DNA from: a bacterium
Lineage (GTDB): Bacteria; UBP14; UBA6098; B30-G16
Length of the DNA: 36,168 nt
Assembly (NCBI GenBank): GCA_021162205.1
Contig: JAGGZE010000065.1
Span: 1-36,168 of the forward strand
Reading direction: 5' to 3'
The position numbers were made by a program. Positions 9,001 to 12,000 of this stretch are shown here, one piece after another. Each line of letters opens with the position of its first letter. Positions within the stretch are counted from its first letter, which is position 1.

Positions 9001-12000
9001 AATTTACGAAATAGGAAATCCCTCTTTACAATAAGGGGGATTTTTTAGTATATTAAAAAATATCGCTAAATGAAATTGCTTAAATATATTATTTTTTATT
9101 TCGATTTTAATTTTTTTAAAATTAAGTTTGTATTGACAAACTTAAATAAATAATTTATATGTTTAAACATAATTTTTTAGGAGGTATTTATGGAAGCTCT
9201 TGGAATGATTGAAACAAAAGGTTTAGTTGCACTTATCGAGGCATCGGATGCGATGGTTAAGGCTGCTAATGTTAGACTCGTTGCATACGATAAAATCGGC
9301 GGCGGATATGTAACCGCACTCGTTCGTGGGGATGTTGCCGCATGTAAAGCTGCAACCGAGGCAGGTGCATTGGCTGCACAAAAAGTGGGCGAATTAGTTT
9401 CTGTTCATGTGATTCCACGCCCTCACAAAAATATTTACGAAATATTCCCGATTAAACTCCCTGAGGAAAAATAATTTAGTGAAGGAGTATTATGGACAAT
9501 CTCGATATAGACCAGATTGTTCAGGAAGTGGTCCGAAGAATCCGTGAGGAAGTTAACTCCTCGGGGCAGGTTAATATTTCTATGCCCGAATCATCGGACC
9601 TCGTCAGTATTGTTGCTCGTGCCAGAGCCGCGCAGGAAAAATATCAAGCGATGGGGCTCGAAGCTCGAAAACGCGCTGTTGAGGAAATGCGGAAAATTGC
9701 TCTTTATTATGCGGAGGAACTCGGCAACGATGCTGTTTCTGAAACAGGTTTTGGTAAAATGCCCGATAAAAAGGAAAAAGTTATTCTTGCGGCGACGAAA
9801 ACCCCTGGTGTCGAGGATATCGTTCCTAAAACATATACAGGCGATAATGGTTTAACGCTCGAAGAATTAGCTCCATATGGAGTGGTTCTGTCCATTACAC
9901 CATCGACTAATCCGCCATCGACAATTGTGAATAATTCGATTTCGATTGTTGCCGCTGGAAATGCTGTTATATTTCAGCCGCATCCTTCCGCAAAGGATGT
10001 CAGTATAAAAACCGCTGAACTTATGCGGAAAGCGCTAATTTCTGTCAATGTTCCCATCGATGTGATTCAATGTGTTCCCGAACCGACTATCGAAAGCGCA
10101 AATGAACTTATGCATCATTCGGATATAGATATTGTCGTAGTAACAGGTGGAATGGGAGTTGTCGATGCTGCGCTGAACTGTGGCAAAAAATCGATTTGTG
10201 CAGGTCCTGGAAATCCGCCTGTTATTGTCGATGAAACTGCCGATATTTCCAAAGCTGCACGGGATATTGTTGCTGGTGCATCTTTCGACAATGGAGTTCT
10301 ATGCACAGCTGAAAAAGAAATTTTTGTTGTGGAAACTGTTGCCGATGAACTTATCCGCCAAATGAGAACGGCTGGAGCGGTTCAACTATCACCTGCCGAT
10401 GCCGATAAAATCACAAAACTTGTGATTAAACAAGACGATGGCTCTGGTGAACGACATCCTGTTATAAATAAGGAATTTGTCGGCAAAAATGCACCTGTTA
10501 TCGCTCGTGCTGCAGGGATAGATGTCGGCGATAGCGCTCCATTGATATTTTTCGAGACTCTATGGGACCATCCGCTCGTTATGGCTGAACAATTGATGCC
10601 TGTTATGCCTGTGGTTCGTGTGCCGGATGTCGATGAGGCAATGCGATTGGCAATTATAGCTGAACATCGATTCAAGCATAGTTTTATTATGCACTCGAAA
10701 AATGTGGAACGGCTGTCGAAAATGGCGAGAATGTGCGATTGCAATATTTTTGTAAAAAATGGTCCATCGTATTCGGGACTCGGTTATAATGGCGAGGGCT
10801 ATACCACACTCACGATTGCTGGAACTACGGGCGATGGTCTTGTAAGTGCGAAAACATTTACTCGACCGAGAAGATGTGTGCTGGTGGATTATTTTAGGAT
10901 TGTGTGAGTGTAGAATAAATTGAATTTTTAGTGTGAAATTACCAAATTTTTAATGTGACTAATATTTTAATCGATTTATAATATTTATCGCTTTCACTGG
11001 ATTTTTGCGATTTTTTGGAGGATTGAAATGAGACGATTATTTTTAGTGATTTATACATCGGCAATTTTTCTAATATTGTCTGGACTTACATTTGCCAAGA
11101 CCTACGATTTTCAGAGGTTTTTTGCTAAAAAAGTGCGTCTTCAAAAAGGAACTGTGATTGTTCTCGATAATCCTGTCGGTGAAATTCACATCACAAATAT
11201 CGACCCTAATTTAGGACCTTTTGTAATGGTCAAGCAGCGAGTTTATGCCGAGGCAAATGAACTCTCTAAAAGCCGCTATCTCGTTATGATGGTTCGATTG
11301 GATATAAGTCGTCGTCCCGATACACTGTATATGAAAGCTATTTTCCCTACTCATATGTATGAAAAATATTGCTATCCCGATATGGGAGGATTTTTTACAT
11401 CCGAGGTTTCTAATATGTGGCACGGCAAGAAATTTACCGTTTCTCCTAACAAGGGTGTAACATTGTATTCGGATATATATTTACAGATTCCCGCTGGAAC
11501 TAAAATATCGGTTAATTCTATTGCGACCACATTTGTTGTGGAGGATTATATCGGAGATATCGAACTTTTCACCGACCATGCATCGGCGATGACCGCGGGT
11601 GATATTAGGGGGAATTTATGGCTGACTGCTTGTCATGGAAATCTTTCTGTCGGCAAATTCGATGGTAATTTATTTTATTATGGTGAGGATTCCGACCTCA
11701 GTTTCTGCGATGTGATAAATGGAACTGTCGATGCGCAAAGCACTACGGGCGATTTAATCTGGACAGCTAATTGTGATTCGCTCGAATCGCTCGAACTTGT
11801 GTCGCTTTCCGGTAAAATTATGGTCGATGGTGGAGTTGGAAAAATTTGCAAGTTGAAAAATGATGAAGGCGACATCGATATTAAACTGGAAACGGCGGTT
11901 GGAGATTCACTTTCAGCAAATACTTCAGGCGGCGATATAAAATTGGTTGCACAGGAAAATTATGCTAAAAGCATTTTTGCTAAATCCGATGAAGGCAAAG

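What a model noticed while it worked through the whole genome (the two positions that open the first line are those of the whole stretch)
9190..10907. Sugar-phosphate microcompartment with no BMC locus: genes at ten separate sites
The genome encodes a complete SPU-type bacterial microcompartment: two BMC-H, one BMC-T, four BMC-P, PduS, and AldDH, DeoC and RpiB each with an N-terminal encapsulation-peptide-like extension. It has no main locus: the 11 genes lie at ten sites on ten contigs, and only BMC-H and AldDH (this place) remain adjacent. The organelle is kept under full operon dispersal and would be missed by locus-based BMC surveys.
Evidence so far: Genes g00196-197 (C22), g01895 (C170), g01489 (C125), g00155 (C20), g00349 (C31), g01098 (C92), g01255 (C111), g01070 (C91), g01635 (C143) and g00132 (C18) have unrelated neighbours. 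The extensions are seen on DeoC, AldDH and one of two RpiB. The same set is dispersed in relatives: in G005 (60 contigs) four BMC-P lie on four contigs and the BMC-H/T genes on three others; G007, G008 and G010 each have four BMC-P on four contigs. g00196 and g00197 are 98% and 89% identical in G007. Sutter 2021 defines a main locus as BMC-H plus BMC-P within contiguous genes (PMC8217296, passages, call 189).
(Added by a program. Inside this text positions count along the whole contig: contig position 1 is position 1 of the stretch shown here. "Call 12" and the like, gene names such as g00115 and contig names such as C1 are that model's own, and its searches are not shown. The text may have been shortened before it was handed on; [...] marks where a part breaks off. 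The agent that wrote the report below was given it as the finding of a first reader that could run no searches.)

Follow-up and report, generated by a model that had tools for sequence, protein, structure and literature searches.

The report
Scattered-gene deoxyribose-burning bacterial microcompartment
This uncultured bacterium keeps the eleven genes of a protein-shelled compartment at ten separate places in its genome; such scattered compartments were already catalogued, but a tell-tale partner protein shows that this one, and a catalogued type of unknown function in another phylum, likely break down the sugar of DNA.

Summary
All 11 genes lie at ten sites on ten contigs among unrelated genes, intact and under purifying selection (dN/dS 0.02-0.18). 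Dispersal also matches general gene-order shuffling in this lineage.

What is new is the cargo. The long RpiB has Asp in place of the catalytic Cys, the published hallmark of sugar-phosphate (SPU) microcompartments. It occurs in 8 of 11 shell-bearing and 0 of 15 shell-less genomes of the phylum. In a second phylum (Sumerlaeota, host of function-less FRAG6) an Asp-RpiB occurs in 22 of 27 versus 0 of 14. One 3.29-Mb single-contig genome there shows eight sites.

The DeoC 'encapsulation peptide' is not diagnostic: 7 of 12 shell-less relatives keep it. No PTAC or Fe-alcohol dehydrogenase was found; assembly and expression are untested. An earlier scan note reported the same idea on other DNA (Eisenbacteria, MIC7).

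Verdict: SPU chemistry in FRAG organisation, a new variant of a known kind.

The parts
9190..9474 (+). bmcH1: standard BMC-H hexamer shell protein, 94 aa, with KAA and PRPH interface motifs
   Evidence: PF00936 E 4e-29; EutM equivalog over cut-off; motifs; dN/dS 0.019 versus G007
9492..10907 (+). aldDH: CoA-acylating aldehyde dehydrogenase (PduP/EutE-like), 471 aa
   Evidence: NF011927 592.9 bits, cut-off 403; next to bmcH1 in 7 of 7 family-f1 genomes where both are assembled; dN/dS 0.055
9492..9551 (+). N-terminal encapsulation-peptide-like segment of AldDH (about residues 1-20)
   Evidence: ranks 1 of 2180 G000 N-termini under a profile trained on 15 AldDH N-termini from other lineages
9021..9039 (+). 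terminator-like hairpin between the upstream PorP/OmpA gene and bmcH1; suggests bmcH1-aldDH has its own start of transcription (inferred)
   Evidence: 3 terminator-like sites found, 1.4 expected by shuffle: weak

Best explanation
Eleven intact genes at ten sites likely build one sugar-phosphate (SPU-type) microcompartment that would split deoxyribose 5-phosphate from DNA salvage, and they were likely scattered step by step by the lineage's general gene-order shuffling. Shown: the shell set (BMC-H, BMC-H with a ~100-aa C-terminal domain, PduT-like BMC-T with pore Cys, four BMC-P); DeoC and AldDH with catalytic motifs; an RpiB with Asp at the catalytic-Cys site; PduS; thymidine phosphorylase (C20), phosphopentomutase (C118), Pta (C89) and AckA (C181) elsewhere; co-occurrence; purifying selection. 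Inferred: DeoA and DeoB make deoxyribose 5-phosphate in the cytosol. Inside the shell DeoC yields glyceraldehyde 3-phosphate and acetaldehyde, and AldDH makes acetyl-CoA and NADH. PduS, with the PduT pore Fe-S cluster, would reoxidise NADH, since no Fe-ADH is found. The Asp-RpiB would act as a packaging partner of DeoC rather than as an isomerase. The proteins would meet by their encapsulation peptides, so shared gene order is not needed. Several genes ride in housekeeping transcripts, so expression is likely constitutive.
For: Asp-RpiB: Dwyer 2024 states that all SPU RPIs have Asp for E. coli Cys66 and that RPI complexes with DERA. G000's long RpiB has Asp, its short RpiB has Cys. The long RpiB is found in 8 of 11 shell+ and 0 of 15 shell- genomes. 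BMC-type AldDH: 8 of 11 versus 0 of 15. PduS orthologue (45% identity or more): 10 of 11 versus 0 of 15. A four-Cys DeoC segment with an AGAxRI motif: 9 of 10 versus 0 of 12 examined. dN/dS 0.019-0.178 for 11 of 11 genes. Remnant clusters in kin (rpiB-deoC, deoC-x-bmcP, pduS-pduT, deoB-bmcP) show one ancestral module. The RpiB insert matches the eut_hyp C-terminus (E 3e-6) and stand-alone EP-bearing proteins in intact BMC loci. Second phylum: Asp-RpiB in 22 of 27 BMC-P+ versus 0 of 14 BMC-P- genomes, and single-contig G034 has eight sites. Non-BMC neighbour pairs are also poorly kept: 9 of 41 against G005 and 18 of 26 against G007.
Against: The DeoC N-terminal helix scores as an EP in 7 of 12 shell-less relatives versus 8 of 10 shell-bearing ones, so it does not mark cargo. 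DeoC is G000's only DeoC and could work in the cytosol. No PTAC is found in 26 of 26 genomes, no Fe-ADH in G000, and no BMC-Tdp was recognised. Dwyer 2024 notes that PTAC-less SPU loci typically have a BMC-Tdp for acetyl-CoA exit, so CoA recycling is unexplained. No shared upstream motif was found (20% of random sets do as well). DeoB was not found in 4 of the 11 shell+ genomes (G003-G016 set: G006, G007, G015 and none else lacking; see full report) - precisely G006, G007 and G015 lack a match. Kin are not independent, so the co-occurrence counts reflect few gains and losses.
Confidence: 0.7

Rival explanations
1. The shell and AldDH form a FRAG microcompartment for some other aldehyde source. 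DeoC is an ordinary cytosolic salvage enzyme whose N-terminal helix serves oligomerisation, or is a relic.
For: EP-like helices persist on DeoC in 7 of 12 shell-less relatives. DeoC is single-copy in G000. A DeoC-family match is found in 23 of 26 genomes regardless of shell.
Against: The Asp-RpiB, a known DERA partner, tracks the shell in two phyla. The Cys segment of DeoC tracks the shell. deoC lies one gene from bmcP in G005 and G006. No other EP-bearing enzyme stood out among the top 25 N-termini and top 15 C-termini, judged by eye, and Pta, AckA, DeoA and DeoB score negative.
Confidence: 0.13
2. The genes are a decaying relic, or the proteins form a shell-less enzyme aggregate rather than a closed organelle.
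For: Decay is seen in the phylum: G014 has only one, frame-split, BMC-P and no PduS or BMC AldDH found; G016 has BMC-H, PduS and PduT but no BMC-P or DeoC found; G006's long RpiB has lost active-site motifs. No PTAC or ADH.
Against: In G000 all 11 genes are intact with dN/dS of 0.18 or less at dS about 0.65-1.4. Four BMC-P orthologue groups are kept across genera. BMC-H1 is 83-98% identical across the relatives shown.
Confidence: 0.09
3. The dispersal is an assembly or binning artefact: one locus broken across short contigs, or genes from several organisms.
For: N50 is 19 kb. Four sites lie 0.6-1.2 kb from a contig end, so in G000 alone a BMC-H could lie within 12 ORFs of a BMC-P across a gap.
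Against: Unrelated genes flank the sites directly, and the same host neighbours recur in other genera. In G005 (60 contigs) both BMC-H sites are at least 12 kb from a contig end and the nearest BMC-P 3.0 kb, so at least 15 kb apart. Contamination is 0.06% and the ten contigs have GC 0.376-0.424 against 0.408 for the genome. G034 shows dispersal on one 3.29-Mb contig.
Confidence: 0.03
4. About the cause of dispersal only: it was selected (separate tuning of each subunit, or a constitutive organelle) rather than a by-product of genome-wide shuffling.
For: Some placements are stable across genera (BMC-P between a Na/Ca-exchanger gene and a small gene in G000, G005, G006, G008). Axen 2014 suggested constitutive expression for such cases.
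Against: Pairs with a BMC gene are kept about as often as other pairs: 7/14 vs 18/26, 6/15 vs 9/41, 4/11 vs 7/27, 4/12 vs 5/14. ribD and ribH, and deoA, deoB and deoC, are also on different contigs.
Confidence: 0.2

Closest known systems
FRAG1-8 fragmented BMC types (Sutter et al. 2021, PMC8217296; main-text parts 1-3 and supplementary file 4 parts 2-3 plus passages read)
   Same: No locus organisation, several BMC-P paralogues, candidate phyla. The shell set resembles FRAG1 (standard BMC-H, BMC-H with large C-terminal extension, PduS/T). FRAG3, FRAG5 and FRAG8 have DeoC with or without RpiB near shell genes and were already likened to SPU.
   Different: Ten sites rather than up to six; four BMC-P; PduS and PduT split; an N-terminal-EP AldDH next to BMC-H. 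EP-bearing cargo is found far from shell genes, whereas the catalogue says EP-HMM searches in FRAG genomes gave no positive hits.
SPU2 sugar-phosphate BMC (Sutter 2021; Dwyer et al. 2024, PMC11585597, parts 1-4 of 10 read)
   Same: AldDH + DeoC + RpiB with N-terminal EPs, BMC-P triplet plus one extra, BMC-Ts with pore Cys and PduS, usually no PTAC or ADH, Asp-for-Cys RpiB.
   Different: SPU2 is one locus, at most split in 2-3, and has a BMC-Tdp, which was not recognised here. The RpiB here carries an extra folded ~45-aa eut_hyp-like module.
FRAG6 (Sumerlaeota/BRC1/Hydrogenedentes)
   Same: Scattered shell genes with PduS/T; tested here, its host phylum carries remote Asp-RpiB and EP-DeoC too.
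   Different: The catalogue lists no typical BMC enzymes near its shell genes. Its Asp-RpiB has no N-terminal EP but has a C-terminal tail. AldDH was not located in G034.
HO and MIC7 BMCs (Sutter 2021)
   Same: The catalogue notes EP-extended DeoC at remote sites in some HO genomes; N-terminal-EP AldDH.
   Different: Both keep a main shell locus.

Membership tests
FRAG BMC | no locus organisation / no BMC-H with BMC-P among contiguous genes | tested here: met
   secure by distance in G005; in G000 a join across a gap within 12 ORFs is not excluded
FRAG BMC | [quoted passage not shown] | tested here: inconclusive
   four paralogues 29-39% identical to each other, stable orthologue groups; colour-clade HMMs not available (supplements too large)
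FRAG1 subtype | shell-only type: two BMC-H (one with a large ordered C-terminal extension), PduS/T pair, no enzymes | tested here: not met
   shell set matches, but AldDH is adjacent to BMC-H and pduS and pduT are apart
SPU BMC | DeoC/DERA with N-terminal extension and catalytic residues | tested here: met
   TIGR00126 292.7 bits; 68-aa extension ranking 6 of 2180; motifs
SPU BMC | RpiB with EP and Asp in place of Cys66 | tested here: met
   model shows helix 3-17, disordered linker 16-48, small domain, RpiB fold
SPU BMC | AldDH with N-terminal EP | tested here: met
SPU BMC | at least three BMC-P, with grey and orange members next to each other | tested here: not met
   four BMC-P, all on separate contigs; adjacency stated as general
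SPU BMC | signature enzymes encoded in the shell locus | tested here: not met
   deoC on C143 and rpiB on C18 without shell genes
SPU BMC | shell assembly and encapsulated DERA activity | not testable with these tools
   needs expression, EM and enzyme assay

The most novel reading that the evidence does not exclude
Many of the catalogued function-less FRAG microcompartments are SPU organelles whose operon dissolved completely. A remote Asp-RpiB is a one-residue marker that assigns them to deoxyribose catabolism. This phylum preserves the whole life history: mini-clusters, full dispersal at ten sites, decay, and shell loss with an orphan encapsulation peptide kept on DeoC.
Probability: 0.5. 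Interest if true: 0.68.

Novelty: new variant of a known kind. Interest (0 to 1): 0.5.

Why it matters
Sutter 2021 names the function of FRAG microcompartments as an open question. A marker that can be read from sequence (Asp-RpiB) and a full parts list make it directly testable by reconstitution, here and in FRAG6. The case also shows that an 11-component organelle can persist under purifying selection with almost no shared operon. [quoted passage not shown]

Tried and rejected
Shared regulatory motif upstream of 8 of the 10 sites (the two with 20 bp or less of spacer were left out): not significant, 20% of 200 random sets did as well. The 92-aa gene coupled to the C111 BMC-P as a BMC regulator: rejected, since a 72%-identical orthologue is in shell-less G004 and it lies apart from BMC-P in G008 and G009; the Atlas search for it did not complete. 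Further EP cargo: none convincing. Atlas search for the RpiB insert: best score 0.77, a lead only. Word-index search for the insert found only G000 and one close relative. The Sumerlaeota RpiB tail matches the insert profile only at E 0.48 in one locus, so homology is not shown. Expression: no RNA holder listed. Literature searches found no paper assigning FRAG6 or this lineage a substrate. Sutter supplementary file 5 holds no FRAG terms; two supplements (MOESM5, MOESM7) were too large to read and may list this lineage. The phylum's name was not established; the name used was a recalled guess.

Full report
OBSERVATION. The window is contig C22 of G000 (2.57 Mb, 185 contigs, N50 19.3 kb, 95.5% complete, 0.06% contaminated). 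Positions 9190-9474 encode a 94-aa BMC-H and 9492-10907 a 471-aa CoA-acylating aldehyde dehydrogenase. Genome-wide searches give a second BMC-H with a ~100-aa C-terminal extension (C170:5511-6071) and a PduT-like BMC-T (C125:2251-2796, Cys at the pore position by recalled analogy with PduT). They give four BMC-P (C20:14034-14285, C31:22647-22904, C92:5900-6199, C111:6046-6357). They also give PduS (C91:578-1900), DeoC (C143:686-1513), a long RpiB (C18:4787-5602) and a short RpiB (C131). The direct neighbours are unrelated: RecA, Sir2, a Na/Ca exchanger, RibD, Tgt, NadC, TopA, a PPIase. PTAC and Fe-ADH were not found; Pta and AckA exist without EP.

IS THE DISPERSAL REAL? Four G000 sites lie 577-1223 bp from a contig end, so closeness across a gap cannot be excluded in this assembly. 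However, the adjacencies seen in kin are broken inside contigs: pduS is followed by tgt, pduT is preceded by a PPIase gene, and deoC is preceded by nadC. In G005 (60 contigs) the set lies at nine sites on nine contigs; the BMC-H sites are at least 12 kb and the nearest BMC-P 3.0 kb from a contig end. All 11 genes are under purifying selection against G007: dN/dS 0.019-0.178 by Nei-Gojobori, dS 0.65-1.44.

IS IT SPECIAL TO THE BMC? Apparently not. Adjacent pairs in the fetched loci of relatives that stay adjacent in G000 were 18/26 (non-BMC) vs 7/14 (with a BMC gene) for G007. They were 9/41 vs 6/15 for G005, 7/27 vs 4/11 for G006, 5/14 vs 4/12 for G008, 1/5 vs 0/3 for G015 and 0/9 vs 0/1 for G014 (only loci in hand, not whole genomes). 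ribD/ribH and deoA/deoB/deoC are also on different contigs. Remnant clusters survive in kin. bmcH1-aldDH is kept in 7 of 7 family-f1 genomes with both assembled. deoC-HD-bmcP occurs in G005 and G006, rpiB beside deoC in G010, G014 and G015, and pduS with pduT in G015 and G016. G015 has two adjacent BMC-P, and G014 has deoB two genes from a frame-split bmcP. No shared upstream motif was found. Two BMC-P genes sit 1 and 20 bp behind housekeeping genes, so they are likely co-transcribed (inference).

WHICH PROTEINS BELONG? Of 26 genomes in the phylum, 10 have BMC-P, 11 have BMC-H/T and none has PTAC. An EP profile was trained on 15 AldDH N-termini from other lineages. It ranks G000's AldDH 1st, DeoC 6th and long RpiB 11th of 2180 N-termini. 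The long RpiB is present in 8 of 11 shell+ genomes (not found in G008, G009, G016) and 0 of 15 shell- genomes. All 8 have Asp at the Cys66-equivalent site, while 24 of 25 short RpiB show Cys (one was misread by the pattern). Dwyer 2024 (parts 1-4 of 10 read) reports this Asp in all SPU RPIs, negligible isomerase activity, and a DERA-RPI complex. The long RpiB is EP + linker + a small folded module + RpiB (AlphaFold2, 7-sequence alignment, mean pLDDT 77). The module matches the C-terminus of eut_hyp (TIGR02536, E 3e-6) and stand-alone proteins in five intact BMC loci (E 9e-7 to 1e-3). BMC-type AldDH (8/11 vs 0/15) and PduS (10/11 vs 0/15) also track the shell. DeoB was found in 19 of 26 genomes; among shell+ genomes it was not found in G006, G007 and G015, that is 3 of 11.

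AGAINST. DeoC's helix scores at or above the proteome's 99th percentile in 8 of 10 shell+ but also in 7 of 12 shell- genomes examined. G011's fragments were not examined; G001 and G012 had no match; DeoC was scored over the whole extension. Only the four-Cys/AGAxRI segment is shell-specific (9/10 vs 0/12). A tree of the catalytic domain (50 rows: 22 from the phylum, 1 from a clustered BMC locus, 27 picked from 120 homologues) places the eight shell-less f6 DeoC beside the f1 clade (92/75, moderate). Shell-less G004 and G013 fall inside f1 on long branches. deoC has the same downstream gene in shell+ G014 and shell- f6 genomes (recognised as RlmH from recall). Loss of the shell with retention of DeoC is the simplest reading. 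Kin are not independent, so these counts reflect few events.

A SECOND PHYLUM. 41 genomes were searched from the phylum of G026 (record title Candidatus Sumerlaeota, a FRAG6 host). 27 have BMC-P and 26 have BMC-H/T. 54 of 55 RpiB matches were read. Asp-RpiB occurs in 22 of 27 BMC-P+ and 0 of 14 BMC-P- genomes (3 of the 14 had no RpiB match). It lies near shell genes in only 2 of the 22 within the stretches fetched. DeoC carries an EP-scoring extension in 5 of 5 shell+ genomes checked; shell-less ones were not checked. G034, one contig of 3,289,105 bp, has PduS-BMC-T at 91 kb, BMC-H at 586 and 875 kb, DeoC at 673 kb, BMC-P at 906, 1162 and 2850 kb, and Asp-RpiB at 3238 kb. Its AldDH was not located. 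These RpiB lack an N-terminal EP.

MECHANISM. Thymidine phosphorylase (C20) and phosphopentomutase (C118) would supply deoxyribose 5-phosphate. By the SPU scheme, DeoC gives glyceraldehyde 3-phosphate and acetaldehyde, and AldDH gives acetyl-CoA and NADH. PduS would recycle NAD+ (proposed in the paper cited by Dwyer, seen only as a search listing), and Asp-RpiB would help pack the core. Cytosolic Pta and AckA would yield ATP. How CoA is recycled without PTAC or a recognised BMC-Tdp is unexplained. Genes, motifs, co-occurrence and selection are shown; assembly, encapsulation, flux and expression are inferred. The DNA is held by hydrothermal-vent metagenome runs (two runs of one study hold 80% or more of the words and may be the source).

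COMPARISON AND NOVELTY. Sutter 2021 retrieves all shell proteins first and defines FRAG1-8, with components in up to six locations. FRAG3, 5 and 8 already carry DeoC with or without RpiB, and EP-HMM searches in FRAG genomes were negative. Axen 2014 (passages) anticipated non-proximal, constitutive BMC genes in BRC1 and Poribacteria. The archaeal SPU preprint (passages) concerns intact operons. So the system works like SPU2 and is organised like FRAG; it fails SPU's locus criteria and FRAG1's shell-only criterion. New here are the degree of dispersal, the remote SPU cargo shown by a diagnostic residue, its extension to FRAG6's host phylum, and the orphan EP after shell loss. An earlier scan note (e1-9955520; unchecked) reports dispersed DeoC/RpiB cargo for MIC7 in Eisenbacteria. 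Unseen supplements may already list this lineage. Verdict: new variant of a known kind; interest 0.5.

Noticed in passing
L224:5409-6182 (G006:C34): The long RpiB keeps its EP, insert and Asp but has lost the SDH and His motifs; this fits a structural rather than catalytic role.
   Followed up: partly
L240:85-1965 (G014:C142): The only BMC-P of G014 is split over two frames and lies two genes from deoB; PduS and BMC AldDH were not found, so this BMC may be decaying.
   Followed up: partly
L241:5757-6656 (G016:C5): A 299-aa BMC-H with the C-terminal module duplicated, in a 93%-complete genome with PduS-PduT but no BMC-P or DeoC found.
   Followed up: no
L015:5511-6071 (G000:C170): The conserved C-terminal module of BMC-H2 has no Pfam hit; by recall it resembles Rho-N/HeH helical domains. 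A 362-aa gene without Pfam or NCBIfam hit lies upstream in G000, G005 and G007.
   Followed up: no
L020:5767-6045 (G000:C111): A conserved 92-aa HTH-like gene abuts BMC-P in G000, G005, G007 and G010 but also occurs in shell-less G004.
   Followed up: yes
P0087, P0019, P0023, P0068: An Ignavibacteria DeoC (FRAG1 host group) has a 72-aa EP-scoring extension; other close homologues are flavoprotein-DeoC fusions.
   Followed up: partly
window 35-8987: A 2004-aa Asp/Cys-rich secreted-looking protein followed by a 978-aa PorP/SprF-OmpA protein, probably a type IX secretion substrate and partner.
   Followed up: no
L017:9035-14688 (G000:C20): Thymidine phosphorylase, a sugar-binding protein, Lnt-like and Sir2 genes run co-directionally into a BMC-P; the thymidine phosphorylase link is not kept in G007.
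   Followed up: partly
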